This document shows, in pieces, positions 1,431 through 64,000 of a stretch of DNA of 64,000 bases. Position 1 is the first letter of the stretch. Every line of letters starts with the position of its first letter. This stretch comes from Chiloscyllium plagiosum (lineage: Eukaryota): contig NC_057758.1 of the NCBI RefSeq assembly GCF_004010195.1, positions 4,126,962 through 4,190,961 of the forward strand, given 5' to 3'. The notes beneath the pieces are model-generated. The model made no database searches. It was not told the origin of the DNA and was given only the letters and a program-made list of their open reading frames with translations. A program made the position numbers and the translations under genes.

Positions 1431-1712
1431 CCCCTGATCTTGAACAATGTCTCTCCCTCTGTGTTTTCCCTCGCTCTGTCTGTCTCTCCATCTCTCTCCC
1501 GCTCTCTCTCGCTCACTCTTCTTCTCTCTGTCCATATTTGCTGGAAGAACAGTTGCGTTTCTCTCTGCAGAAAAGTCCAACCAGACTCGAAATGTTAACT
1601 CTGCTTACCTCTCTCTCTATGGTGCAACTGCCAGATGTCCTGACTTTTCCTGGGGGTGTCTATGTGGCAACACATGCGACATGGACAAGATGTGGTTAAC
1701 AATTCAGCCGGT

Positions 1713-1718
1713 TTTAAT
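1713..1718 (-). promoter_or_regulatory. Polyadenylation signal ATTAAA of the defensin-like gene
   Basis: About 90 nt downstream of the TGA at 1806 on the minus strand. Confidence 0.45.
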
Positions 1719-1805
1719 TTACATCTTTCAGGGGACAACGAGTTTTGGAGTCCGACCCCATACAGCCTTCACAATCAACGCAACCATCAAATGAAGTCAG
1801 CATCC

Positions 1806-1942
1806 TCATGGCTTCTCTGATCGCCGATTCTTACAACAGCGTTGTTCAAATAGGCACAACCTCACGACAGATTCCACTTGACGTGCTGTGCACACATTGA
1901 CTGAGCACATCCCAACAGCTTTTTTACAATCGTTTTTATACC
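1806..1942 (-). CDS. Beta-defensin-like precursor, exon 3 (mature six-cysteine domain)
   Basis: Acceptor TTCTTACTTCTTTGCAG|, phase 1. Encodes (G)YKNDCKKAVGMCSVNVCTARQVESVVRLCLFEQRCCKNRRSEKP*, i.e. C-x6-C-x4-C-x11-C-x5-CC, cationic. Confidence 0.8.
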
Positions 1943-2119
1943 CTGCAAAGAAGTAAGAACAGTTTTATATGTCTGTTCTGGTCGGTGGAAGCCTGAGGGA
2001 GAAGGTCGAATTCCAATGACACGGAATCCCCCAGATTATTTAGGGCGCACCCTGATGACATTTGGCCTGCTGTTTACAGTCCTGTTCTGTCACCTGATGT
2101 AAATTTCCAGACTCTTTCC

Positions 2120-3830
2120 TCAGAAATCTGCATTTCATTTCCATCCCAGCAAACATCCAACTTCCATCTTGAAAGTTTTAATTGAACCTGCTTTGCCTAT
2201 CCTTCCAGATCATGCATTCCAGACGCTTAGTAGTGGCAGATAATACAAATGTCCTCAATTTCGGATTGTTTCATTTGAACACAACTTTAATTGTACGCCC
2301 CTCTCATTCTTGTTCCATTTCCAAATGGTAACGTCTTCTCCCTATGTACTCCGTTCAGCGTTGTCTCTTGATTTCCGATCTCCTGTCAGCCATCTTCTCT
2401 CCAGTGAGAACAGTCTCACGTAATTTAATCTTTCTTTGCTATTAGCTCCCACTTCCAGCCAATGTCTATTATCTGTGCGCAGATACATGCATGTTCATTT
2501 GCCCCTGGCCTTCTTTAACGTTCTACCACCTTCACCACCCATTCCCTCATTTACTTTTACCATTAAGTAGTCTTCCAACAAAGTGCATCACCACACACTT
2601 CCCTGTATTGAAATCTGCCAATCTCTTCATTGCCAACTCCATCAATTTGCCAATGTCTTTTTGGATCTTTGCAATATCCTCCCCATAGTTTTCATTTCTC
2701 CCAAGGTTCGAGTCAACTGCATATTTGAATTTCTTTTTTCTGCTCTGCACTCCAGATGCAGTATCACGAATGCCTGTCATACTGAAGCATTGAATACCTC
2801 CTCTTGGATTTATTTCTATGTTCACAAAACTAAATTCACTAAAGTGTCTGACTCTGTGAGTCTATGTGAGCTGCCTAAAAGAAAGACAAAGTTATGATCG
2901 ATCTGATGTTTCCTGACGTCGTTGGTATCTCGAACGGGAGGCCAAAGTTTGAGAATAAGGGGCTGCAGAATTAATACGGAGATGTGGAGAAATTGCTCGT
3001 GCGTAAACTCAAGACTCAATTGAACTTGCCAGCTTCTGTTCTCCTTCTCCAAAATAAACACATCCTTCCTGTATTGTGGTGACCAGACGTACAAGCAATA
3101 TTTCAGCTGTGCCCAATCTAAAGTTCTGTGCAGGTCCAACACTACCTTCTGCTATTAAAGTCTATGCCGCGAATGATAAAGGAAATGGTCGTTCTTAATT
3201 ATACCATAAACATATGGATAACGACGTGAAGATACCTCTATTCCTTTGAACCTCGTCATGACCCAGAAGTCACGTCGAAACTCCTGTCTTGATTCTTCTT
3301 CCAAAGTGTGTTTCCTAAACTTATTTAGGTTAAACCCAATTCTCAACGCATATGAAGAGCTGGCTTATTCAGGTATTTTTGCATCGGGCTATCTTTCTGC
3401 CGTCCACAAAATTGGAAATGTACCTCACATCTCTGTGTTTGAACGATTTGTAAATACAGCAAATATTTGAGGTTCCAACCTATCACCTTCTGCCGCACAA
3501 ATTGCAAAGCTGAACCCGTCCCAATTTAGCTCCTGTCTACTTACTACCAGACCCGTCATTCTTCTCTCCATGCTACCTTTGTACATTGTATATTCTATAT
3601 AAAGCCTTCTTGAAATTTAATTAAATCACGTCCAAGGGTTGCCCTTTGTCTACAACTCGTGTTGAAAATTAACTCAAACAGCTTCCTCAAAACACGATGT
3701 TTCAACAAACCATGTTGCTTTTTCCCCCAATTGCCTTTGTAATCGTCCAACTGCCCTGTTACAACTTCCCAACATCATTGTTCCTAAGTCAATGTGTTAC
3801 CTACCTCGATGAGTCTTAACCAGCTGCAAT
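2120..3830 (-). mobile_element. Mosaic of degenerate CR1 fragments in defensin intron 2 (up to about 3800)
   Basis: IQKDIGKL..FNTGKCVVMHF; LKYCLYVWSPQYRKD. Confidence 0.6.
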
Positions 3831-3871
3831 TGGTGGGGAACAGGCATGGGACATTTCGAAGTCTGGTAATG
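3805..3871 (-). CDS. Beta-defensin-like precursor, exon 2 (propiece)
   Basis: Acceptor CCTCCTCCTTTTCAG|, 67 nt encoding HYQTSKCPMPVPHQLQLVKTHR+G, donor GAG|GTAGGT. Converts phase 0 to phase 1, exactly what is needed to join exons 1 and 3. Confidence 0.7.
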
Positions 3872-4149
3872 CTGAAAAGGAGGAGGATGGTACGCTGCCT
3901 TCAAATATTTCTAAAATAAATGCTTTTCAAATTCGGACATTGCTCGAATATACACACGGAAGATGATGATCAAATCTATGAGATCAACTTGGCATAGACG
4001 ATCCAATTAGATAGAGTATGCAGAGAACATTTTGAATCATTTCTGCATTGTGGGCGCTACACAGTGCTGCTGCTGGAGGGAACGTTGCAGGGATTATGTG
4101 CGTGTCTCATTATAAAAATCGACCCCAGGGTTAACTATATTGTGTGAGA

Positions 4150-4900
4150 GGAGAAGAAGTAGAAAAATGAGAAAGGTAGTCAACCCTCAAGCCTGCGCTA
4201 ATTTAATGCAATCATGGCTGAACTTATCTCAACCACAACTCTACACTCCAATCGCCTCCCTTCAACCCGTTGTCAGTTAAACATCTGTCCACATCCTCTT
4301 TATGTTTACTTAATATCCCGACATCCGCTGTATTAGGCGTCAGTGAGTTCCACAGATTGACGACACTTTGAGAAAAGTTTTTTTCCTCATCTCTGCTTTC
4401 GTCTATACCCTTTATTCTAAAACTTGTACCAGTCCTTTTCTACGTTGCCTGATGTGAAGAACCAGCCGTTCTACATCGACTTTATCAATAGAACTTAGCA
4501 TTTTGCAAACTCCAATTTCATCTCCGCTCATGCTTCTAACTATTGGGAGATGAGAGTCTCTAAGTGCTTTAACTTTCGTCACAAGCGGATGTGAAGAATC
4601 ATCCATTCTATGTCAATTTTATAAATCGCAATTATCATTTTGCAGATTCTGATGTCATCTCCACCCATTCTTCCTATTACTTGGAGATTAGAGGTTTTAA
4701 CTGCTTATATATTCTTCATTAGCAAAAGCTTCACTACTTGTCTCAATTGACTGAACCTCCTCGGAATTGCCTCCTGAACAACTGTATACTTTCTCAAGTA
4801 AGGCGATCAAAACTGTCCAGCATATTCAAAAGGCAGACTTACTGAGGCCTTCTATGGTTGCAGACACAATTACCTCTTTTATAGTGGATTCCTTGAAGAA
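4150..4900 (-). mobile_element. CR1/HER1 LINE 3' fragment in defensin intron 1
   Basis: Antisense of CR1 ORF2 C-terminus (GDEIGVCKMLSSIDKVDVERL). Confidence 0.65.
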
Positions 4901-5340
4901 TAAATTTTAAATAATTAATTATTCCATGCTCCAAGGTACTTTCAGCGTTTGAACTGGTATTAGATCAGGAGCTAAATCGTCGCATTCTGTGCCGGAACAA
5001 GTCTCCTATCTTTGGAATTCAATCTTCAGATTTCTGATATTGAAAAGCCCAGTGTCAAAATATGGGGGTGGCCCAGATGATTACACAGAAAAGGGGAGGG
5101 ATGAAATCAGGAGATGGCAATGATCGATGTGCAGAGGTCTATCAGGAATGGACACCAGTAGAAGAATGTAAATTAATAAATTGAGAAACTCAATCTGATC
5201 CAACAGGAAAGCATTGATCTTATTTGGTGAAAGCGAATGCTGTTTCAACGAAAGAAATGAATTTTGGACATGACTCAGTGCTGAAACAGTTTTCTGTGAT
5301 GTCGCAATTGAGGGAGTGAATGACCTTCTCATATACTTAC

Positions 5341-5460
5341 GAATGGTGCAACGGGAGGGAAAATACTGATCTTCGAATTCGGAAGTTGGAAAAAAGCGTC
5401 AGAAGCAATGGACCGTACAAGCATCAGTACACCGAGTGCCAAGAGTGGTGCCTTCGACAT
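5341..5460 (-). CDS. Beta-defensin-like precursor, exon 1 (signal peptide and start of propiece)
   Basis: Minus strand ATG at 5460 with A at -3. Translates MSKAPLLALGVLMLVRSIASDAFFQLPNSKISIFPPVAPF (hydrophobic signal peptide). Ends at donor GTAAGT, phase 0. Confidence 0.75.
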
Positions 5461-5506
5461 TCTCCACCGACTGTCTCACACCTCCGGGCTGAAGTCAGTT
5501 CACAAG

Positions 5507-5515
5507 CTTTTAAAT
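5507..5515 (-). promoter_or_regulatory. TATA-like element (ATTTAAAAG) of the defensin-like gene
   Basis: About 50 nt upstream of the ATG at 5460 on the minus strand. Confidence 0.35.
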
Positions 5516-5676
5516 TCAAGAAGTACTCTGTCAGTAATAATTACCCGTCAGGAAAAATGATTTGCTGCATCTTGTGTGTATCACGTTGACAGCTCATAAG
5601 CACGGGCGGCAGAATGTATGCATATGCTTTACCCAGTCTGATTGATATTAACTCATGAAGGGACAGGAAGACATAA

Positions 5677-5750
5677 AGCGAGAGAGGGAGAGAGAGCGAG
5701 AGAGCGAGAACGAACGAGCGAGCGAGTGAGAGAGAGCGAGAGAGAGAGAT
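5677..5750 (+). repeat. (GA)n-like microsatellite upstream of the defensin-like gene
   Basis: GAGAGCGA repeats. Confidence 0.85.
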
Positions 5751-6887: not shown

Positions 6888-8240
6888 ACTAGAACATAGA
6901 ACATAAAAACTAGAACTTAGAAAAATACAGCACAGAACAGGGCCTTTGGCCAACGATGTTGTGCCGAGCTTTAATACTACTGTAAAATATAGTAACTTAT
7001 CCTCTGCACCCCTCAACTCACTGATACCCATATGCATGTCCAGCAGTCGCTTCATGTACCCAATGACTCTGCTTCCACGTACACAGCTGGCAAAGCATTC
7101 CATGCATTCACAACTGTATGCGTGAAGAACCTACCTCTGAAATCTCCTTTATGCCTTCCTCATAATATCTTCGAACTATGACTTCTCTTACCAGTCAATC
7201 CTGCCCTGGGGAAAAATCTCTGGTTGTTGACTCTATAAATGCCACTCATTATTTTGTACACCTCGATCTTGTCTCCTCTCTTCCTACTTCTCTCCAGAGA
7301 GAAAAGTACAAACCTATTCAACCTTTCTTCATAAGGCAAGTCCTCCAGTCCAGACAGCATCCTGGTAAACCTTATTTGCACCCTCTCCAAAGCCTCTGTA
7401 TCTTTCCTATAGTAGTGCGACCAGAACTGGACACAAAATCCCAAGTGTGGTCTCACCAGGGACTTGTAGAGCTACAGCAAAACCTCGCGGCCCTTAAACT
7501 TGATACCCCTGTTAATGAAAGCCAAAACACCATATATTTTCTTAAGAAAACTATGAACTTGGGTGGGAACTTTGAGGAATTTGTGTACTTGCACACCCAT
7601 ATCCCTCTGTTCCTCCACAATGCCAAGAATCCATGTGTTTAACCATATATTCAGAATTTGAGTTCGACTTTCCAAAATGCATAACTTCGCATTTATCCAG
7701 GTTTAACTGCATCTTCCATTTCTCAGCCCTGCTCCGCATTCTGTGTACTGCAGCCTGCAGTAGCCCTCCATTCTATCGACGGCACCTCCAACCTTTGTGT
7801 CACCTGCACAATTACTAACTCACTCCTCCACCTCCTCGTTAAAGTCATTTATTAAAACTACAAAGAGCAGAGGCCTATGAAAAGAGCCCTGCGGGACGCC
7901 AAACAACACTGACCTCCAGACACAATACTTTCCATCTACAACCAATCTCTGCCTTCTGCCAGCCAGCCAATTCTGAATCCAGATATCCAAATCTCCCTGC
8001 ATCACATACTTCCTGACTTTATGAATCCGCCTACCATGTGGAACCCTATCAAATGACTTGCTGAAGTCTATATACACCACATCCACTGCTCGACGTTCGT
8101 CAACCCCCTCAAAGAACTCACTAATATTTGAGTGGCATGACCTGCCCTTACAAAGCCATGCTGACTGTTTTGCCAAAAAGTCATAAATCCTATCCCTCCT
8201 AATTCTTTCCAAAACTTTGCTGACCGCAGACGTAAGATAT
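6888..8240 (-). mobile_element. CR1/HER1 LINE, 5'-truncated (RT C-terminal half)
   Basis: VDVVYIDFSKSFDRVPH, GVPQGS, RPHLGFCVQFWS..LERVQ. (TTCTA)n tail. Confidence 0.9.
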
Positions 8241-8833
8241 AATTATTTCCACAGTTGAATTAAAAGTAGAGAATGTGCTTGGACGAATCACAGAATTCCC
8301 TCCCTAAAGGTATTGGAGGTCAACCAACAGCACAGAGACTGCAACAGATGAAGAAGGCAGCTCTCCACCATCTTCTCGTGAGGGCAAATAATCATAGGAA
8401 ATCATTGCTGGGTCCAGTAAGCGATGTCCACAATATTTTGTAAGAATGAGGATGAAGTCACGCGGGAGAAATAATAGAAAGCACTTCTGCACACAAAGAG
8501 TAGTGGCCCTCAGGAATTCTCGTACTCAAATGTCGGTGAATGATAATTCAATTGTTACGTTTATATCTGAGATAGACACATTTTTGTTGAGCAATGCTGT
8601 CAAGGGATATAAGTTAAAGGCAGGCATATTGTGTTATCCCACTGATAACATATGGTTTTACGAGCAGCTGAACTGGTTCGAGAATCTGAATGGCCTTATT
8701 GCGTTCCTGAATTCCTATGAATAATTTATTTTTATCTTCTTCAGCTCACGAATGTACTCAGGCCAATAACTTTGTTCGGTGCATACTGTACACTTGAAGG
8801 AAACAGTTTTAACCTTCCATTCCATTCACTCAC

Positions 8834-22269: not shown

Positions 22270-25200
22270 GTGGGAGATGATGGAGATGACAGTGGTCGAG
22301 TACCTTGGGACGACTGACCATAGTTCTATTGATTTTACAATTTTAGAGAGGGACAAAACCAGTCCACAGTTCAACTTCTAAATTGGGGCAAGGTGGATTT
22401 TGATGGATTTAGAAGGGAGCATGCAGGAGTTGGTTGGAATATTTTGTTGCAACCAAAAGGGACCTCCAGCAAGTGGGAGGACTTTCAAATTGAGATTGTT
22501 CGAGTTTAAGGTCCATATATGCCTCTGAGGGTGAAGAATTACACGGACAAGAATAAGGGAACACAGGGTGACAATAAGTATTGCGGCTTTGAACAGAAAA
22601 AAAAAGATGGACGTATAGATCAGGCACAGGCACCTGGGATCAAAGAAATCTCTGAAGCTATAAACGGAATACAGTTGTCCGGTGATGAAGAACATCAGTG
22701 TGTCGAAAAGGGGGCACGAGATAGACTTGGCTGAGCAGATTAAGATGAATCCAAAGAGGTGGTTTAAGTATACTAAAAAAAAATATCAACAACGAGAGAG
22801 AAAATGTGACACATCAAGGGCTAAGCGATCATGAATATGCAGATCTGCGGGAAAACGGGCGAAGTCCTCCATGAATATTTCTCGGTTGTGTCTACGGTGA
22901 AGAAAGATATCAACACTTGGGAACTTAGGGAAGTTTTGGTGCTATCTTTGGCAAAGTCCATATCACACTTGAGGAGATGTTTGATGCATTCGAATGTATG
23001 AATTTGGAAATCGCCTGGTCCTGAACAGGTATATTCATAAACACAGAACATTACAGCGCAGTACAGCTCTTCAGCACTCGATCTTGCAACGATGTGTGAA
23101 ACCAATGCGTAGCCCATGGAACCGTGACTATTTCATTGTCATCCATTGCTTATCCAATGAATATTAATTGCCCTTAAATTTGGTTTATCTACGACTGTTG
23201 CATGCAGGGCGTTCTACGCCCTTACTAATTTGTGTCTGAGAAATCTTGTTCTGACATCTGTCCTATATCTATCACCTTTCAAATTTCAAACTAAGTCCTT
23301 CGTGCTAGCCATCGCCATCCAAGGAAAGTCTCTCACTGTCCAACCTATCTAATCCTCCACTCATATTTTATGTCTCAATTACGTCACCTCTCAATCTTCT
23401 TCTCTCACCCGAAAACTGCCTCAAGCCACTCAGCCATTCCTCATTTGACCTTCCCTCCATGTTAGGTAACATCCTGGTAATTGTTTTCTGCGCCCTTTCA
23501 AATGCTTCCACATCCTTCCTATAATACAGCGGCTAGAACTATATGCAATACTCCCTGTGCCGCCACACCAGTGCTTTGCACAACTGCAAAATGATCTAAT
23601 GGCTGAGAAACTCAATCCCACTGTCAATAAAAGCTAACAAACCGTGCGAAGTCTTAATATTCCGATCAACCTGTGTGGCGTATACCATAGATATGTGGAC
23701 ATGGACACCTAAATCTCTCTGCTCATCCACACTACCAAGAATCATAACATTAACTCAGTACTCCTTATTATTGTTACTCCTTCCAAAGTGAATCAGCGCA
23801 CATTTATTTGTGTAAAACTCCATTTGCCCTATTTCTGCCCAGCTCTGCAGGTTATCTGTGTCTGTCTGAAACCTGCAACATCCTTCACCACTGAACACAA
23901 CTCCACTGACATTAGTGTCATGCATACATTTACTAACCCATTCTTCTACGTTCTCATCCAGCTCATTCAATGACAAACGGCACTTGCCCCGAAACAAATC
24001 CAAGCGGTAGTAACTGAACATTTCCAATCAACTATTACCTTTCTGTCTTCTTTCAGCTAGCCAAAACCTCCATATTCTGTGCATTAGCCAACGCAGAGAA
24101 CCTTATGAAACGCTTTACTGAAATTATATACACCGCATTAACCGCTTTACCTGAATCCAACTATTTGGTCACCTTCTGAAATAACTCAATAAGGTTTGTG
24201 AGGCATAACATACCCTTTACAAGACTATGCAGAATATCCCGAATCAAATGGTTCCTTTCCAGATGATTAGAAGTTCCTACTCCTATATTCCTTTCCAACA
24301 TTTTTCCCACAACGTAAGTAAGGTAATTTTCAGGGTTAATGCAATTTCCCTTCTTGAACAAGGGGACAAAATGTGGGATCTTCCAGTCTTCTGGCATTAT
24401 TTCTGTAGAAAATGACGACAGAATGATCAAAGTCACATTTTCTGTAATCTCCTCCCTAACTTTCCAGAGAATACTAAACTAAATCCCATCTAGTCCGAGG
24501 AACTTACTTATTTTCACAAATTGCACAATTGCTAATATCTCCTCCTTACGAACTTCAGACACATCTAGTCTAATATCCTTTATCTCAGTATTATCCTTGC
24601 CACCACTAACCTATTCCAATGTTAATACTAACGAAAAATATTCATTTAGCGCCTCTCCAATCTCGTCGAACTCCACACTCAACTTCGCAGGACTAACCTT
24701 GACTGCACATAATCTAATCCTTGTCATTCTTTTATTCCTGACATACTTGTAGAAAGCGTTCGGGCTTTTCTCTTGACATGACATCCCAAAGGTTCTCAGG
24801 GCCCCTGATAGTTCTTCTTAGTTCTCTCTTTAGGTCGTTCCTGGTTAACTGGTAATTCTCAAGCGCCTTAACTGAGCCTTCACGAGTCGTCTGTACTTAA
24901 GCCTCCTTTTTCCTCTTGACAAGCGATTCAACTTCTTTAATAAACTACATCTTCCTCGCTCGACCCCTTCCTCACTGCCTGACAGACACTTACTTATTAA
25001 GCACACGTTGTAGCTGTTCCTGGAACAAGCTCCACATTGCAGTTGTGCCCATACCCGGCACTTTCTTTCACAAAACCTTGCTTAGTCGCATCATAATTGC
25101 CTTTCCCACCTATACCTCATGCCCTGCGGTAGATATATATCTCTTTCCATTGCTAAAGAAAATACAACAAAATTGTGGTCACTATCACCAAATTGCTCAT

Positions 25201-26770
25201 CTATCTCCAAATCTAAAACCTGTCCTGTTTCATTGCTCAGTACGAAATCCAGTGTGGCCTCGCCTCTTCTTGGCCTATCTATATTAGACACCTGCAAGAT
25301 GATAGAGAAGTTATGAGGCCCTAGCTGACATTTTTGCATAATCATGAACCACGGGTGAGGTGTCGGAAACTGGAAGACAGCGAATTCTGTGCGGTTATTC
25401 AAGAAGGCCTGAAAACAAAATCCTGGGAAAGAAAGACTCACAAGTCGACCATCTGTGGTAGGTACGTTACTTGAGACAATTCTAAGATATACAAGCATTT
25501 GGAAATATAGGGCTTGATTAGAAATCGTCAGCTTTGCTTTTTTTTGCGTGGGATATCATACTTCGCAAATTTGTTAGAGTTCATTGCTGGAGGGATCAGG
25601 AAGGTTATTGAGAGCGGGGCGGTAGAGTGGGATGGAATACAGAGGGTGCTGGCAAATCTATACACAATTGGCTTTATAATAAAAAGCAGTGGCTAATAGT
25701 GGTTGGATGTTTGTCGGACTGGAGGCCAGTGATTAGTGGAGTGCGTCATGGATCGGCGCTGGGCCCATTGATATTTGTAATCTGTATCAATGATTTGGAT
25801 GAGACTGCACAAGGCGCACGAGTAAGTTTGCAATTCACACTAGAATAGTCCGCATGATAGCATGCGAGAACATTGAATACAAATTCCAGCAGGACATTGA
25901 TAAGCTGGGGAAATGGGCTGAGAAATGCCAAATGGAGTTTACTATAGATAAACGTGAAGTATTGCATTTATGGAAAGTCAAGTCAAGTAGGATTTTCTTG
26001 GTAAAAGGTCTGGCCTTCCGGCTTGTGGAACAGGTGGACTTTTGAGCTCAGGTCTACCGTTCTCTGAAATTGTACTAAAAAAAAAGACAGGGCAGTGAAG
26101 AAGCCTTGCAGCACACTGACTTTCATCAGACAGGGCATTGAGTGTAGAAGTTTGGAAGCCATGTGTCATTTGCAAAGGGGCTTTACTCTGGTCGCATTTC
26201 GCGAATTCTGTTCAGTTTTAGTCACCTTGCTATAGAAAAGATTTTATTAAACAGGAAAGAGTGCAGAATAAATTCACAATAATGTTGCCAGGTCACAAGG
26301 TCTGTTTTATAAGGAGAGATTGGACAAGCTAGTATTTCTTTTCTTCAGAGCACCGGAAACTGCGAGGGGATTTTATCGAAGTGCAGATGATCTTGAGAAA
26401 TAGGGTGAATGCACTCAGTCTTTTTCACACGGTTGGCCAACTGAAGATGAGATGGAATCAGTTTAAGTTTAGAAGGGGAAAAAAAGAAGGGAGCCTAAGA
26501 GGTAACATTTTCCACAGAGGGTTGTAAGCATTTGAATTGGAATGAATGAAAGGAGCTGACAGCAGAATTAGTTGGTCAGGTTCATTAACAATATTTAAAA
26601 TACACTTGACGCAATACATGGATAGGAGACGTTTCAAAGGATAGGAAAGGTTTCGAAGGATATTGGATAAGTGCAGGGAAATGGAGTTTACGTTGGTTGA
26701 CAATTTGATTGGCGTGGACCAGTTTAGGCCAAAGTATCTGTCTCCGTGCTCTATGGCTCTGCATCTCTAT
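22270..26770 (+). mobile_element. CR1 LINE (22270-23035 and 25290-26770) split by a nested antisense CR1
   Basis: KSPGPEQVY breakpoint resumes at about 25290. [16 protein letters not shown]. 3' tail at about 26770. Confidence 0.8.
23036..25288 (-). mobile_element. Nested CR1/HER1 LINE, 5'-truncated
   Basis: DRPRRGEATLDFVL..GDSDHN, PEDWKIPHFVPLFKKG, tail ACAGAACATTACAGCG. Confidence 0.85.
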
Positions 26771-45940: not shown

Positions 45941-46309
45941 TAATTTCCATCTCCAAAAGCTATAACTCAGAATATTCTAAACGAAACATTATTTGGTCAC
46001 ATTGAATAATGTGGACTATGACAATTTTTCCAAATATCTCTGGTTCTCATGTTAATTGATCCCTTTGACGGCTATGGTATTCACATTTGCAACTCTTTGT
46101 AAATTTGACACTGGGCTATTCGTTTTGTAACCATTGCTAGTATTCTTCAAAGCGTTTTCCGTGCACAAAGGCAAATCATATGATTGACAGGCTGAAAGGC
46201 AATGGTTTGTGAGGCATTTCATTATCAACTTATCAATTATTTATAATGTAAACACCGCATTTTATGCCTTCTGAATGCGACAGAGAGCGTTAAGCGATCC
46301 CACAACTAA

Positions 46310-46741
46310 TGCATCACATCATTGAAAAGGAGTGCAAATGTTTCAGACTTGGGATAATTTCAGAGGTACCGGTAATGTCCCTCTTTCGACAACTGTCCCA
46401 TTTTCCGTCTACAATCGCAACTGGAAGTATTGCAAAAAGATTTGATCAGATGCATTTGTACTGCGCCACTCTACTTCCAACTGCATGATTATACAGAGGA
46501 TAGTCAGGCCTGTACTGACAAATGGCAACGGACTTTAGTGTCACATAGTGTCACATAGTCTTCAGCAAAATCCTAATTTCCACAAAATTAAATCAAACTA
46601 CTCCGCCCCACACCAGCCTTCATATTCAATGACATTCCCGTCACGGCATCGCACACAATTCACAGCCTGTGATGGGCCATTAATTTCGATCTGCACCTGA
46701 ACAACAACATGCATCCTGGTATTCCATCAGCAGGTCAAAGT
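46310..46741 (-). pseudogene. Decayed butyrophilin-like V exon, copy 1 (within 717-bp tandem duplication)
   Basis: Acceptor AATTTCCAG. Motifs QIEINGPSQAV..LILWK..QY..SRV..NTS/LRL..ENGTV..EGHYR. Confidence 0.55.
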
Positions 46742-47029
46742 CTGGAAATTCAATGGAATCAACCCTTTCTTTATGCCTGACACGGTAGGTCGTTTGATTA
46801 GTAGCGCATCGACCACTGAAACATTGAAGATACTTTGATGCTGTTTACAGGAATCTATTTGTCTGCAAGCGTTTTCCGTGCACAAAGGCAAATCATATGA
46901 TTGACAGGCTGAAAGGCAATGGTTTGTGAGGCATTTCATTATCAACTTATGATGCAATTATTTATAATGTAAACACAGCATTTTATGCCTTCTGAATGCG
47001 ACAGAGAGCGTTAAGCGATCCTACAACTA

Positions 47030-47452
47030 ATGGATCACATCATTGAAAAGGAGTGCAAATGTTTCAGACTTGGGATAATTTCAGAGGTACCGGTAATGTC
47101 CCTCTTTCTACAACTGTCCCATTTTCAGTCTACAATCGCAACTGGAAGTACTGCAAAAAGATTTGATCAGATGCATTTGTACTGTGCCACTCTATTTCCA
47201 ACTGCATGATTATACAGAGGATAGTCAGGCCTGTACTGACAAATGGCAACGGGCTTTAGTGTCACATAGTCTTCAGCAAAATCCTAATTTCCACAAAATT
47301 AAATCAAACTACTCCGCACCACACCAGCCTTCATGTTCAATTACATTCCCGTCATGGCATCGCACACAATTCACAGCCTGTGATGGGCCATTCATTTCGA
47401 TCTGCACCTGAACAACAACATGCATCCTGGTATTCCATCAGCAGGTCAAAGT
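47030..47452 (-). pseudogene. Decayed butyrophilin-like V exon, copy 2
   Basis: Near-identical duplicate of 46310-46741 sharing the same disabling lesions. Confidence 0.55.
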
Positions 47453-47581
47453 CTGGAAATTCAAAGGAATCAACCCTTTCTTTATGTCTGACACGGTAGG
47501 TCGTTTGATTAGTAGCGCATCGACCACTGAAACATTGAAGATACGTTGATGCTGTTTACAGGAATCCATTTGTCTGCACGT

Positions 47582-47869
47582 TTAGATCAGATAAAGTTAG
47601 ATTAGATTACTTACAGTGTGGAAACAGGCCCTTCGGCACAACAAGTCCACACCTCCCCGCCGAAGTGCAACCCACCCATACCTTTACCCCTTACCTAACA
47701 CTACGGGCAATTTAGCATGGCCAATTCACCTGGCCTGCACATCTTTGCACTGTGGGCGGAAACCCACGCAGACACGGGGAGAATGTGCAAACTCCACACA
47801 GTGGGAATTGAACCCGGGTCTCTGGCGCTGTGAGGCAGAAGTGCTAACCAGTGTGCCACCGTGCCGCCC
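47582..47869 (-). mobile_element. HE1-type SINE (small internal deletions)
   Basis: Same A/B boxes and tail as 11299-11609. Confidence 0.9.
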
Positions 47870-51694: not shown

Positions 51695-54600
51695 TGGGAG
51701 CGGTCACAGCGCGGAAACAGGTATGTGAATATTTTTCCGTATACCTAGCTGCAAATATATAATGGTGAGTAGAGCGGGTTCTTTCTTGATTATTTGATTT
51801 TATTGGGATTTGTCTCTTGATTAAATTTGAGACGTATTAGACATGAGTATGAAGTCAGCCTGGCACAGTGTTTTGGAGAGTAATAAGACGGTTCTGTTTT
51901 CTATGTCTGTAAATTGGAAGGAGCAACATGGCCTTTGGTAGAGAGAAAAATGCTTCTTGTCGGATTTGGGAGTTTCTCGAGAGTCTACGGGTTATTGAGG
52001 ATTTTATCTGCAACACAGTTCATTTGTTGCAAATCCTGTCTTAAAGAATGGACAGTTACAGGCAATGAACAAAGTACAAGAGCTCTGAAGTCTGAGGGAT
52101 GACCGTTACAGGAAGAGAGAAAAGCCAAAGATACAGTCAGTAAGATGGATTAACTCCAACAAAGGTAGGAGGGATAGGCAGGTAATATTCTGTGATTATC
52201 CCAATTTTAAACAAGTATGTTGTCTTTGAAAATATAGAGGGTGATGCACTTTCTTGGGAATGCAGCACAAACAGCCAGATTTCTGGTATCAAGACAGTCT
52301 ATAAAGCAATGATGAGTACGGCGAGTTCGAAGTGATCGATCGTGTTAGGGGACTCACCAGTCACAAGCACAGACTGATGTTTCTGCAGCCGACAGCGAAA
52401 AAGCAGAATGGTGTGTTGCCTCCCTGGTGCCTGGATCAAGGGTGTCACTGATAGGGTGCAAAATGTTCGCAAAGGAGAGAGGGACCAGCAGAACGTCACT
52501 GTACACATTGTTACCAACGGCTTAGGAAGGGAAAAGAATGAGAATCTGAAGGCAGAATATTGCGAAATAGCCCGGAAATTAATAATGATGTCTTCTACGC
52601 CACATATGTCTGGATTACTTCCAGCGCGATGAGCTAGAGAGCACAGGAATAGTAGAGTAGAACATACTAATGTGTGGCTAAGAAGCTGGTGCATGGGGGA
52701 AGGATTCAAATTTTTGCATCATTGGAATCTCTTCTGGGGTAGAAGTGACCTGAACAAGAAGGATGCATTGCATCTGAATTGGATGGTCTCTTAAAATACT
52801 GACAGGGAGATTTCTACAGCAGCTCCGGAGGATTCAAACTATTAACGGGCGGGGTAGGTCCCAGGGACATTTTGAGGAAAGCTATCACTCTGAGACTGGG
52901 ACCGTGCAGAAAAGAAGCTAGTCAGAAAGTCACGTCAGTCAGGAACAAAGCAGAGAACAACGTTGAACTGATTAATTAAACTGCATTTATTTCATTGCAA
53001 GAGGCCTAACAAGGAAGGCAGATGAACTCAGAGCATGGTTACGAACTCGGGACTCGGATATCATAGCAATTATAGAAACTTGGCTCAAGGATGTTCAGGA
53101 CTGGCAAATTAATTCTGTAGAAAACACATATTACAGGGAGGATAGAAAGGGAATCAAGAGAGGAGGGCAAGGTTTTTTTTGATAAGGGATAGAGTTACAG
53201 CTCTACTCGGGCAAGATATTCCCGGAATTACTACCAGTGAAGTTATTTGGATGGAACTGAGAAATAAGAAAGTGATGGTCAGCTCATTTGGATTGTATTA
53301 TAGACGCCATAATAGTCCGGGGAAATTGAGAAAGAAGCGTTTAATGAGATTTAAGTTATCTGTGAGAATAACATGGTGGTTATGGCTGGGATTCTTGACT
53401 TTCCAATAATATACTGGCACTGTCATAGTTTTAGGAGCTTAGATGGTGATGGATTTGTTAAGAGTGCACAAGAGAATTTTCTGAGTTTGCATGTGGATGC
53501 ACCTACTCTTGAGAAATCAGTGGAGCACTTCGGGGCCAGCGACCATAATCCTGTTAGTTTTAACACAGTGATGGAAAAGGAAATACCAGATCGAACGTTT
53601 GAAGTTCTGAAATGGAGAAAGGCTAATTTTACCGGCATTAGGGAAGAACTTTCAAAAGCGGATTGGGGCAGATGTTCACAGGTAAATGAATAGCTGGAAA
53701 ATGGGAAGCCTTCAGGGATGAGGTAACGACAATCCAGGTACAGTATATTCCTATTAAGGGGAAAGAATAGTCTTGTCGGTGTCAGGAAAGCTGTATGACC
53801 AGAGAAACTGAGTGTATGGTTCAGAAAAAGAAGAAAGCATGTATCAGGTATAGACTGGAGAGATCGAGTGAATCCTTAAAACAGTATAAAGGCAGTAGGA
53901 GAATACTTAAGTGGGAAATCAGGACGGCAAAAGGGAACATGAGATATCTTTTGTATTTAGTGTTGAAGAGAATCCAAAAGTGTTTTTGTAAATGCATTAA
54001 GGACAAAACGGTAATTATGGTGTGAACTTGGCCCCACAAGGATCAGCAAGGCAGCCTTATTGTGGAGCCAAAGGATACTGAACGATATTTTGCAGAAGTG
54101 TTTACTGCGGAGAAGGACAGGAAGACATAGAGTGGGGGAAATAAACGGTGAGATCTTGAAAAATGGCCATCTTACAGAGGACGGGGTTCTGGGTGTCTTG
54201 AAATGCATAAAGTTGGATAACTCCCCTGCACCTGATGAGGTGTACACTACAAATCTGTGGGAAGCTAGGGAAGTGATTACTGGCCCCTTGCTGAGATATT
54301 TGTCTCATCGATAGTCATAGGTGAGGTGCCAGATGGCTGTAGGTTGGCTGACATGGCACCTTTTTCTATTAAAGGTGTTAAGGACAAGCTAGGGAATTAT
54401 AGACCCGTAAGCCTGACACCACTGGTGCTTAAGTTGATGGAGGGGGTCCTGAGGGACAGGATGAACACATATGCTAAGGCAAGGATTGGTTTGGAATGGT
54501 AAACATGGCTTTGTCCTTGGGAAAACATGAGTGATGTACTTGATTGTGATTTTGGAAGAAGTAATGAAGAGGCTTGATGAGGGCAGAGAGCTGAATGTGA

Positions 54601-56200
54601 TCTCTGGAATTCAAAAAGGCATTCGATAATGTTCCCTATGGGAGATTGGTTAGCAAGGTTAGATCTCATGGATAAAGGGAGAACTAGCCATTCTGATACA
54701 GAACTGACTCGAAGGTAGAAGACAGACGTGATGGTGGAGATTTGCTTTTCGGAGTGGAAGCCTGTGGCCAGTGGTGTGCCCTAAGTATCAGTGTTGGGCC
54801 CACTACTTTTCATTATTTATATAAATTATTTGTACATGAACATTGGAGATATATCTAACAAGTTTGACAATGACACCAAAATTGGGATTGTAATGGGCAG
54901 CGAAGATGGCTACCTCAGATTACACCGTGATCTTGATCAGATGTGTCAATGGGCTGAGAATTTAATTTATGGAGATGAGATGTGATACATTTTGGGAAAG
55001 AAAATCTTAGTAGGACTTATACACTTAATGGTAAGGTCCGAGGTGATGTTGCTGAACGAAGAAGCATTGAAGTGCAGGTTCATAGCTCATTGATAATGGA
55101 GTTGTGATCTCTGGAATTCAAAAAGGCATTCGATAATGTTCCCTATGGGAGACTGGTTAGCAAGGTTAGATCTCATGGAATAAATGGAGAACTAGCCATT
55201 CCGATACAGAACTGGCTCGAAGGTAGAAGACAGACGTGATGGTGGAGATTTGGTTTTCGTAGTGGAAGCCCGTGGCCAGTGGTGTGCCATAAGTGTCAGT
55301 GTTGGGCCCACTACTTTTCATTATTTATATAAATTATTAGTATATGAACATCGGAGATATATCTAACACGTTTGACAATGAAACCAAAATTGGGAATGTA
55401 ATGGACAGCGAAGATGGCTACCTTAGATTACAACGTGATCTTGATCAGATGTGCCAATGGACTGAGAATTTAATTTATAGAGATGAGATGTGATACATTT
55501 TGGGAAAGAAAATCTTAGTAGGACTTATACACTTAATGGTAAGGTCCGAGGAGGTGTTGCTGAATGAAGAAGCATTGAAGTGCAGGCTCATAGCTCATTG
55601 ATAATGGAGTTGCATGTAGACAGGATGGTGAAGAAAGCATTCGAATGCCTTCCTTAATTAGGTAGAGCAGTGAGTATAGGAGTTAGAAGGTCATGTTGCA
55701 GTTGTACAGGATGTCAGTTAAGCCACATTTGGCATATTGCGTCTTCAACTTTCGTTTCCGTCCTATCGGAAGGATGTTGTGAAACCTGAAAGAGTTGGAG
55801 GGTTTGAGCGTGAAGGAGAGACTGAATAAGCTGGGACAGCCGTCCCTTTTGCGTCGAAGACTGAGGGGTCACCTCATAGTGGCATTTAAAACCAAAAGAC
55901 GTATGGAAAGGTTAAACAGACTAATTATTTTCCGTGGGGTGGGAGTAGTCCAGAACGAAATGGCATAGTTTTAGGGTGAGAGGGTACAGATACCCTAAGC
56001 CACCTAAGGAACAACCTTTACACGCTAAGGGATTGAGCTCCAGAGGAAGTGGTGGAAGCACGTATACTTGCAACATTTAAAAGGCATCTGGATGGGTATG
56101 TGAATAGGAAAGGTTTAGAGGGATATGAGCCATGTGCTGGCAAATGCGACTAGATTAGGTTGAGATATCTGGTCTGTTTCCGTGCTGTACATCACCATGA
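51695..56200 (+). mobile_element. Full-length degenerate CR1/HER1 LINE with an internal 507-bp duplication
   Basis: ORF1 esterase (IVLGDS, CLPGA, HIVTN), endonuclease (GASDHN), RT (LGPLLFIIYIN..KFDNDTKIG), 3' UTR. Many stops. Confidence 0.9.
54596..55611 (+). repeat. Tandem duplication, 507-bp period, within CR1
   Basis: TGTGATCTCTGGAATTC at 54596 and 55103. Confidence 0.9.
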
Positions 56201-58530: not shown

Positions 58531-59429
58531 TTATCGAACATATTTTATGACAAGAGTGAAGGGATATTTCAACATATGTTTCAACTGATTTCGGAACATA
58601 GACTGTGTCACAGCATAAATAAGAGTGTTTGTGCAGCAACTCATGAGCTGCAGCATGAAACCTATTTCATGCACAAGACCAGGTATCCAAAATGGTACAT
58701 CGCTGAATAAATACATTCTCTCCCACAGAGAATATACAATTAAAGTTGACCATAACAATATAAAATTAGCCGAGAGTACAAATAGTAAAATGACAGATTT
58801 TCTTCGATTCTCCATTTCTTGATCAGTGTGACTCTCCTCTCTTCTGTGGGCCTGGAGCCGCCTGCGGGCTCCACTTGCAATTAAAATGTGTCTGACGGTT
58901 AAAGCGTTCAGAAGCAGAATCAAGACAAACGGGACACATGGGGTCAGAATGTAATGCAGAAAATCGATTATTGTCCAGAGCAATGTCATGGCAGTGGTAG
59001 CTTCCATATAACAAAACCAGCGAGCCCTCTGAAGAGTATACGTGCTTTCATACATGAAGTACCAGACAATGTTCTTCCAGCAGCTCAGCGCAGTCACTAT
59101 TCCCAAAACCAAAGAGGCTGTTTTCTCACTGCAATATTTACGATTCAGTGTCTGGCAACAAATGGCCACAAATCGATCAAAGGTGAAAGTGACGGTGAAC
59201 CAGACAGAACAGTCAGTGGCTGCATAAAGCAGGATGGCGTGGATATTACACACGGGGAGGGAATAGAGGAAATAAAAATGCTCCCTATAAACAATCGGCA
59301 TAAGTCTCAATATCACATCGAGGACAATGACTAGTACATCTGCCACTGCCATTGCCTCCAGGTAACGACTGACAGATCCAGAGAGACCACATGTTCTGCG
59401 AAAAAGGATGATGAAAGCCATGATATTAG
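58531..59429 (-). CDS. gpr139-like: GPR139/GPR142-like class A GPCR, main coding exon (end of TM1 to C-terminus)
   Basis: Open 305-codon frame: ANIMAFIILFRRTCGLS..RYLEAMAVAD (TM1/2), FTFDRFVAIC (DRY-like), PFVLILLLN, RRKSVILL, CCTNTLIY (TM7). Acceptor CATCCAAACAG| at 59430, phase 1. Upstream exon not located. Confidence 0.9.
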
Positions 59430-59539
59430 CTGTTTGGATGAGAGGCACGTGATTAATATCGCGGAAATTCGAATGTAAAGATGATCATTTACCTTATATT
59501 GCAATGAGCAGAAATATTGGCCCAGCAAGTAGCTGAAGC

Positions 59540-63309: not shown

Positions 63310-63311
63310 TT

Positions 63312-64000
63312 TTTCGCAGAACATGTGGTCTCTCTGGATCTGTAAGTCGTTACCTGGAGGCAATGGCAGTGGCAGATGTACTAGTCATTGTCCTCTATGT
63401 GATATTGAGACTTATGCCAATTGTTTATAGGGAGCATTTTTATTTCTTCTATTCCCTCCACGTGTGTAATATCCACGCCATCCTGCTTTATGCAGCCACT
63501 GACTGTTCTGTCTGGTTCACCGTCACTTTCACCTTTGATCGATTTGTGGCCATTTGTTGCCAGAAACTGAATCGTAAATATTGCAGTGAGAAAACAGCCT
63601 CTTTGGTTTTGGGAATAGTGACTGCGCTGAGCTGCTTAAAGAACATTGTCTGGTACTTCATGTATGAAAGCACGTATACTCTTCAGAGGGCTCGCTGGTT
63701 TTGTTATATGGAAGCTACCACTGCCATGACATTGCTCTGGACAATAATCGATTTTCTGCATTACATTCTGACCCCATGTGTCCCATTTGTCTTGATTCTG
63801 CTTCTGAATGCTTTAACCGTCAGGCACATTTTAATTGCAAGTGGGGCCCGCAGGCGACTCCAGGCCCACAAAAGGGAGGAGAGTCACACCGATCTAGAAA
63901 TGGAGAATCGAAGAAAATCTGTCATTTTACTATTTGTACTCTCGGCTAATTTTATATTGTTATGGTCAACTTTAATTGTATATTCTCTGTGGGAGCGAAT
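63312..64000 (+). CDS. gpr139-like: Second GPR139/GPR142-like GPCR exon (partial; starts at gap, runs off window)
   Basis: Open frame FRRTCGLSGSVSRYLEAMAVAD...SLWER. About 97% nucleotide identity to the reverse complement of about 58715-59405, with 7 amino acid differences. Confidence 0.88.

What the first reader, a model, noticed from the sequence alone, without database searches (positions are those of the whole stretch)
1806..5460. Hidden intact three-exon beta-defensin-like gene in a shark genome
Seen: three minus-strand exons (5460-5341, 3871-3805, 1942-1806) with canonical GT/AG sites, polypyrimidine tracts and mutually compatible phases (0 then 1). They splice to a stop-free 107-aa protein: MSKAPLLALGVLMLVRSIASDAFFQLPNSKISIFPPVAPFHYQTSKCPMPVPHQLQLVKTHRGYKNDCKKAVGMCSVNVCTARQVESVVRLCLFEQRCCKNRRSEKP. 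A TATA-like box lies upstream and ATTAAA downstream. Established: C-x6-C-x4-C-x(about 7-12)-C-x5/6-CC with GxC at Cys2, encoded on a last exon after a phase-1 intron, is the beta-defensin signature. The C-terminal domain has net charge about +6 by hand count. Inference: a secreted antimicrobial or immune peptide. Each exon is too short for the ORF track, so it is likely to be missed by annotation. It has stayed intact while the neighbouring Ig exons decayed, which suggests selection.
Basis: partly seen in the sequence, partly recalled or inferred. Interest (0 to 1): 0.9.

Follow-up and report, generated by a model that had tools for sequence, protein, structure and literature searches.

The report
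Shark beta-defensin copy, activity unproven
The three small exons are real and belong to a beta-defensin (antimicrobial peptide) gene, but this is one copy in a mostly broken, duplicated subfamily; its three-exon layout is unique among the copies compared, and nothing yet shows it is switched on.

Summary
The exons, GT/AG sites, phases and stop-free 107-codon frame are as described. The last exon is beta-defensin-like: six-Cys array, phase-1 intron, and an alignment-based model matching beta-defensins. It has no Pfam match of its own. The whole 4.5-kb unit is duplicated; 13 of 17 paralogous last exons are damaged. The three-exon path looks secondary: 0 of 14 other exon-1 copies share its 120-nt length and 0 of 16 other exon-2 copies have its GT donor; frameshifts in exons 1 and 2 cancel out. 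Selection evidence is weak: 4 copy-specific amino-acid changes against 8.1 expected (P=0.09), and the TATA core is degraded. A neutrally evolving sister copy also has open splice paths. No Ig exons were found in the window. RNA was no test. The gene lies in a very large defensin cluster; this scan noted three two-exon members earlier on other DNA of the same contig. Odds are about even between a decaying copy and a living, rescued gene.

The parts
5508..5514 (-). TATA-like word (TTTAAAA), degenerate
   Evidence: 12 of 14 paralogous promoters show a TATAA core at this place, the window copy does not
5341..5460 (-). Exon 1, 120 nt: ATG, signal-peptide-like stretch (residues 1-20) and start of a pro-piece; carries a copy-specific 1-nt deletion near 5386; donor GTAAGT in phase 0
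   Evidence: best 10-residue hydropathy 3.07; homologous exons elsewhere in the genome
5337..5340 (-). Four bases up to an alternative, weaker GT donor (124-nt exon 1, phase 1) that would allow an 86-aa two-exon product
   Evidence: splice-path enumeration
3872..5340 (-). Intron 1 (GT-AG), homologous across paralogs
3805..3871 (-). Putative exon 2, 67 nt: conserved acceptor, 22 polar codons with one extra Cys; 2-nt deletion shared with L012; GT donor found only in this copy
1943..3804 (-). Intron 2 (GT-AG), phase 1
1806..1942 (-). Exon 3: six-Cys beta-defensin-like domain, net charge +6; a 2-nt deletion after the last Cys shortens the tail relative to sister copies
1713..1718 (-). ATTAAA polyadenylation-like signal
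   Evidence: kept in 6 of the 9 paralogs printed there

Best explanation
Shown: this is a copy of a beta-defensin-family gene that was duplicated as a multi-kilobase unit many times, within a very large defensin cluster, and most copies are damaged (birth-and-death pattern). Inferred: its close relatives had a two-exon layout (121-nt phase-1 signal exon spliced to the Cys exon) that made a secreted prepro-peptide, with the cationic three-disulfide domain acting on microbial membranes or as an immune signal. This copy then took a 1-nt deletion in exon 1, a tail frameshift and promoter changes. Most likely, narrowly, this is a young decaying copy with an open frame rather than a gene under current selection.
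For: Unit duplicated with introns at about 70-87% identity; L012 aligns over 9.2 kb at 84%. 13 of 17 paralogous last exons have a lost acceptor, stop, frameshift or lost Cys. Exon 1: 0 of 14 other copies are 120 nt; exon 2: of 16 other copies 8 have TT and 8 have the site deleted, none GT. The intron tree nests the window copy inside the family, so its GT is most simply derived. Exonic indels specific to this copy: 1 in exon 1 and 1 in the tail, against about 1.0 expected in 324 neutral bases. TATAA core absent here, present in 12 of 14 paralogs. L012 evolves at the neutral rate (10 nonsynonymous against 8.8 expected) yet has 4 open six-Cys paths, so an open path is no proof of function. Two intact-looking cluster genes examined have a phase-1 signal exon: L066, no middle exon found by my scan; L027, whose intron is partly N.
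Against: Copy-specific changes in exon 1 codons 1-26 plus exon 3 codons 1-37 are 4 synonymous and 4 nonsynonymous, against 8.1 nonsynonymous expected (Poisson P=0.09). pN/pS against the six sister-clade copies is 0.18-0.43. The chance of keeping all six Cys, no stop, ATG and four splice dinucleotides at 6% neutral divergence is about 0.12. Both donors used have consensus-like intronic bases, and the exon-2 donor sits where it restores the frame. ATTAAA is kept.
Confidence: 0.48

Rival explanations
1. Living gene rescued by exon recruitment: the exon-1 frameshift is compensated by including the 67-nt middle exon, giving a secreted 107-aa precursor with a remodelled pro-piece and an unchanged cationic defensin domain that acts as an antimicrobial or immune peptide.
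For: Deficit of amino-acid changes (4 against 8.1); about 0.12 chance of neutral survival; two copy-specific changes that create or strengthen frame-compatible donors; indels fall outside the signal and Cys domains.
Against: Deficit not significant; the finding was picked because it looks intact, out of 18 copies; degraded TATA; an unpaired seventh Cys in the pro-piece; the route needs out-of-frame intermediates (inference).
Confidence: 0.3
2. Living gene, but two-exon: the donor four bases downstream (124-nt exon 1, phase 1) splices straight to the Cys exon and gives an 86-aa precursor; 'exon 2' stays intronic.
For: Path is open with six Cys; matches the phase-1 signal-exon layout of cluster genes L027 and L066.
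Against: That donor scores below the 120-nt donor in my rough matrix (-1.5 against 0.5; matrix recalled), and the copy-specific base change weakens it.
Confidence: 0.1
3. The three-exon layout is the old, continuously functional form, and this copy is the source gene from which broken duplicates budded.
Against: It needs several independent G-to-T losses at one donor base; the window copy is nested and its introns evolve at the same rate as sisters; searches with exon 2 found only subfamily-like matches.
Confidence: 0.08
4. The copy-specific bases (1-nt deletion, donor G) are assembly errors or one allele, and the true gene has another structure.
For: Fragmented assembly: 101,977 contigs and three N gaps in the window.
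Against: Several independent private differences at the expected divergence rate; the deletion is not in a long homopolymer.
Confidence: 0.03
5. Chance pattern in non-coding DNA.
For: No Pfam, PDB-sequence or protein-database match for the window exon alone.
Against: 0 of 50 shuffles give the pattern; a profile of 10 non-subfamily defensin exons scores it 16.7 bits, above all 1000 shuffles (max 13.1).
Confidence: 0.01

Closest known systems
Tetrapod beta-defensins (Pfam PF00711; hBD-2 1fd3, hBD-1, mallard AvBD3 7lzl, crocodile CpoBD13 7t9q)
   Same: Six-Cys array with GxC, all on one last exon after a phase-1 intron; signal exon upstream; model of a short helix plus three strands whose top 14 Foldseek rows are all beta-defensins; cationic.
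   Different: Eleven residues between Cys3 and Cys4; long pro-piece of about 40 residues; a proposed middle coding exon; no direct Pfam match; activity untested.
Teleost beta-defensins
   Same: Three exons and two introns, six Cys, prepropeptide (PMC3978493, passage read).
   Different: In teleosts the Cys span two exons and precursors are 60-77 aa (same passage); here all six Cys lie on the last exon and the precursor would be 107 aa, so the shared exon count is not shared structure.
Invertebrate big defensins (oyster 6qbk)
   Same: Cys domain on its own exon after a phase-1 intron (PMC7203481, passages read); top VIA-align row Z 4.6, rmsd 2.1, 39 aligned, tied within 1 Z with beta-defensins.
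   Different: No hydrophobic N-terminal domain: the exon-2 peptide is polar (GRAVY -0.92).
Other defensin genes of this genome (L027 on C101976, L066 on C49)
   Same: Invariant six Cys and Gly; signal exon ending in phase 1.
   Different: Only 19-34% identical to the window exon; classical ten-residue Cys3-Cys4 spacing; no sign of a middle exon in L066.

Membership tests
vertebrate beta-defensin | Six-Cys array C-x6-C-x3/4-C-x(9-11)-C-x5/6-CC with GxC (spacing recalled) | tested here: met
   C-x6-C-x4-C-x11-C-x5-CC; six Cys and Gly invariant in a 14-row alignment
vertebrate beta-defensin | Cys domain preceded by a phase-1 intron | tested here: met
   feature described in PMC7203481
vertebrate beta-defensin | Short N-terminal helix plus three-stranded antiparallel sheet | tested here: met
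   Model from the 14-row alignment: H4-7, E10-13, E21-24, E34-38, pLDDT 76.5; best match hBD-2, probability 0.89 but E 0.33. Caveat: the alignment rows bias the model; the single-sequence model was all-helical
vertebrate beta-defensin | Cleavable signal peptide | tested here: inconclusive
   Hydropathy only: best 10-residue mean 3.07, two basic residues in 1-20; no SignalP available
vertebrate beta-defensin | Sequence-profile match to PF00711/PF13841 | tested here: inconclusive
   Window exon: no family at E<=10. 9 of 14 aligned relatives match PF00711 at E<=1, best 8.9e-6. Local profile links them to the window exon. ESM Atlas top hits are PF00711 clusters at 0.82, a lead only
vertebrate beta-defensin | Disulfides 1-5, 2-4, 3-6 | not testable with these tools
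   Model coordinates are not returned; needs disulfide mapping
vertebrate beta-defensin | Expressed, processed peptide with antimicrobial or chemotactic activity | not testable with these tools
   RNA lay had no positive control; no assay possible
teleost-type three-exon beta-defensin | Cys residues split over two exons | tested here: not met
   All six domain Cys on exon 3 against PMC3978493
big defensin | Hydrophobic N-terminal domain before the Cys domain | tested here: not met
   Exon-2 peptide GRAVY -0.92, best 10-residue mean 0.45; exon-1 residues 21-40 best 1.5

The most novel reading that the evidence does not exclude
Inside a very large shark beta-defensin cluster that my literature searches did not find described, this copy is a living gene caught after a rescue: a frameshift in the signal exon was repaired by switching on a cryptic middle exon through one new splice donor, giving a three-exon defensin with a new pro-piece and all six Cys on the last exon, a layout unlike tetrapod two-exon and teleost three-exon genes.
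Probability: 0.28. Interest if true: 0.62.

Novelty: new member of a known kind. Interest (0 to 1): 0.36.

Why it matters
Beta-defensins are well known, and this single copy may be dead, so on its own it is of modest interest. The context matters more. A 2019 review lists no shark defensin among shark antimicrobial peptides (PMC6795676 section 14), and five shark-defensin phrases found 0 papers in the library, yet this genome gives 59 matches to one classical defensin exon, 20 of them on this contig, plus the subfamily studied here. All six Cys on one exon after a phase-1 intron, as in tetrapods, would suggest that the split teleost layout is the derived one (inference). If junction reads exist, this copy is a simple, testable case of frameshift rescue by exon recruitment.

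Tried and rejected
RNA: no RNA holder was listed for window 1600-5700. Laying four runs gave 1 read in X1, 0 in X2, 6 short contig pieces in X3 and 0 in X4, none on an exon and no joints; 2% and 6% of the two raw-read runs were read, the tissue is unknown and there was no positive control, so this is no test. Protein databases: no relative for the window exon among 1.84 billion representatives or in the word-indexed set, alone (longer) or as an alignment (near; longer); short peptides are poorly served, so this is weak. PDB sequence search with the window exon: 0 hits; with the alignment 6 weak hits, best spheniscin-2 E 0.032. Single-sequence fold: all-helical, set aside as unreliable. My first idea that every paralog is broken was wrong: L012 has open paths and 4 of 17 last exons are intact; of those 4, L009 lacks exon 1 by deletion, L010 shows none in the 10 kb held, and L003 is a 1.7-kb contig. 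My idea that exon 2 was formerly read in the phase-1 frame (a motif echoing exon 1) is unproven; the variation test leans the other way. Family-wide constraint on exon 3 is weak: 67 extra states against 80 +/- 9 in intron windows. Ig neighbours: motif scan, tblastn and profiles found none; a whole-window Pfam scan could not be run, so other Ig types remain open. Branch-wise dN/dS could not be computed; only pairwise and copy-specific counts are given. A PF00711 search of the genome returned only 5 matches, so it is a poor census. Alignment A1 used 9 of the 10 pattern-complete exons among 20 fetched (of 59 listed); L050 was left out as near-identical to L047. L024 was a chance hit; L025 and L026 are truncated relatives and were left out of the tallies. 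No second defensin exon was found in the window. Literature: searches (listings only) showed no paper on shark defensin genes; subscription journals are mostly not covered.

Full report
Observation. The three segments, their GT/AG sites, phases 0 and 1 and the 107-codon open frame are exactly as reported. The last exon carries C-x6-C-x4-C-x11-C-x5-CC with net charge +6. ATTAAA lies at 1718 and a degenerate TTTAAAA at 5514. The Cys pattern did not arise in any of 50 shuffled windows. The decayed Ig exons cited as a contrast were not found with V and C1 queries from this genome.

Identity. The window exon alone matches nothing in Pfam, PDB sequences or the protein databases. Searching the genome (window = G000:C49:4126962-4190961) gave 22 matches at E<=10, 17 of them, self included, below 1e-7. 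One weak match, L027, is a classical defensin exon whose five PDB hits are all beta-defensins, though weak (best E 0.054). It finds 59 matches in the genome, 20 on C49, including the window exon. Of 20 that I fetched, 10 show a complete stop-free six-Cys pattern. In a 14-row alignment the six Cys and the Gly are invariant, 9 of 14 rows match PF00711, and a profile of the 10 non-subfamily rows scores the window exon above 1000 shuffles. The alignment-based model has a short helix and three strands; its first 14 Foldseek rows are beta-defensins, none at E<=0.001, and VIA-align ranks big-defensin and beta-defensin domains first at Z 4.6 to 3.8. The single-sequence model was helical, so the fold rests on the alignment. 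I put beta-defensin ancestry at about 0.95.

Family context. The 4.5-kb unit, introns included, is repeated at about 70-87% identity. An intron-only tree nests the window copy with L012 and a six-copy sister clade, with L014 and two older clades outside. Of 17 paralogous last exons, 13 are damaged. Some unplaced contigs may be alleles, so these are not copy numbers. This fits birth-and-death evolution, which is reported for beta-defensins (PMC4255768, abstract start in listing).

The three-exon path. Five other exon-1 copies (L012, L028, L029, L031, L033) are 121 nt with a GT donor in phase 1, which could splice directly to the Cys exon; the sister clade has deleted the exon-2 donor altogether. 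The window copy has lost one more base in exon 1, so its best donor is in phase 0, and the frame is restored only through the 67-nt middle exon. That exon's GT donor is absent from all 16 other copies examined: 8 have TT, 8 lack the site. A 2-nt deletion also shortens the tail. Other open paths exist in the window, and four in L012. Whether the middle exon was once coding, and in which frame, is unresolved.

Selection. Introns differ from the closest copies by 13-15%, exon 3 by 6-11%. Copy-specific changes in the signal and Cys regions are 4 synonymous and 4 nonsynonymous, against 8.1 nonsynonymous expected (P=0.09); L013, now frameshifted, shows 1 against 9.3, and L012 10 against 8.8. The sister lineage was therefore under constraint for part of its history, L012 looks neutral, and the window copy is in between. 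Neutral survival of all Cys, stops and splice dinucleotides would be about 0.12, but the copy was picked for looking intact. Exonic indels are not rarer than neutral expectation, and the TATAA core present in 12 of 14 paralogs is lost.

Expression. No test was achieved: no RNA holder was listed and the four runs laid gave no exon coverage and had no positive control.

How it would work. If expressed (inferred from family knowledge): signal peptide cleaved near residue 20, a pro-piece of about 40 residues removed, three disulfides formed, and a +6 peptide released that disrupts microbial membranes or signals to immune cells. The pro-piece has a seventh, unpaired Cys. My odds: decaying copy with an open frame 0.48, living three-exon rescue 0.30, living two-exon form 0.10, ancestral three-exon source gene 0.08, assembly artefact 0.03, chance 0.01.

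Comparison with what is known. It works like, and most probably descends from, a vertebrate beta-defensin. It is not the teleost three-exon type, whose Cys span two exons (PMC3978493, passages), nor a big defensin (PMC7203481, passages; hydropathy). Papers seen: PMC6795676 (passages and section 14), PMC10707392 (passages; its only defensin mention is in the references), PMC7203481, PMC3978493 and PMC4364288 (passages); all others as listings only; no supplements were opened. Searches showed no description of shark defensin genes in the held library, which lacks most subscription journals. This scan had already noted three two-exon defensin genes on the same contig and the large cluster; I found the cluster independently, and those notes are not evidence.

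Verdict. A real beta-defensin-family gene copy and a new member of a known kind. Interest 0.36; 0.62 if the rescued three-exon transcript is shown.

Noticed in passing
G000 contigs C49, C46, C50, C45, C43, C27 and unplaced contigs: At least 59 defensin-like exons match one classical exon, besides the subfamily of this finding: a very large cluster. 10 of 20 fetched are pattern-complete.
   Followed up: partly
L027 6768-6675 and 1615-1497, minus strand (C101976): Intact-looking classical beta-defensin gene: signal exon with phase-1 GTGAG donor, six-Cys exon, AATAAA downstream; the intron contains a long N gap. A good positive control for expression tests.
   Followed up: partly
L066 1676 downward, minus strand (C49:4781929 region): Two-exon defensin candidate with a 97-nt phase-1 signal exon and a proline-containing C-terminal tail.
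   Followed up: partly
L012 (C49:3812800-3822799): Inverted duplicate about 305 kb away, 84% identical over 9.2 kb; keeps six Cys and several open splice paths but evolves at the neutral rate.
   Followed up: yes
window 58531-59484, minus strand: 317-codon single-exon rhodopsin-family GPCR frame (PF00001, E 1.8e-16).
   Followed up: no
window 58715-59405 and 63310-64000: Inverted 97%-identical second copy of part of the GPCR frame, cut by an N gap and the window end; it appears to carry stops.
   Followed up: no
window 46150-47583 and 54596-55612: Two head-to-tail duplications at about 95% identity (729 and 510 nt); real tandem copies or assembly artefacts.
   Followed up: no
G000:C49:5933961-5934215 (L069): An Ig C1 exon resembling a light-chain constant region lies within the defensin-rich contig, 1.8 Mb from the window.
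   Followed up: no
window 7160-8242, 24161-25555, 53355-54314 and both introns: Decayed LINE-like reverse-transcriptase fragments and short interspersed repeats (recognised from recalled motifs; not searched).
   Followed up: no
C33:28043814 and C8:60638256: Copies of the unit have moved to other large scaffolds.
   Followed up: partly
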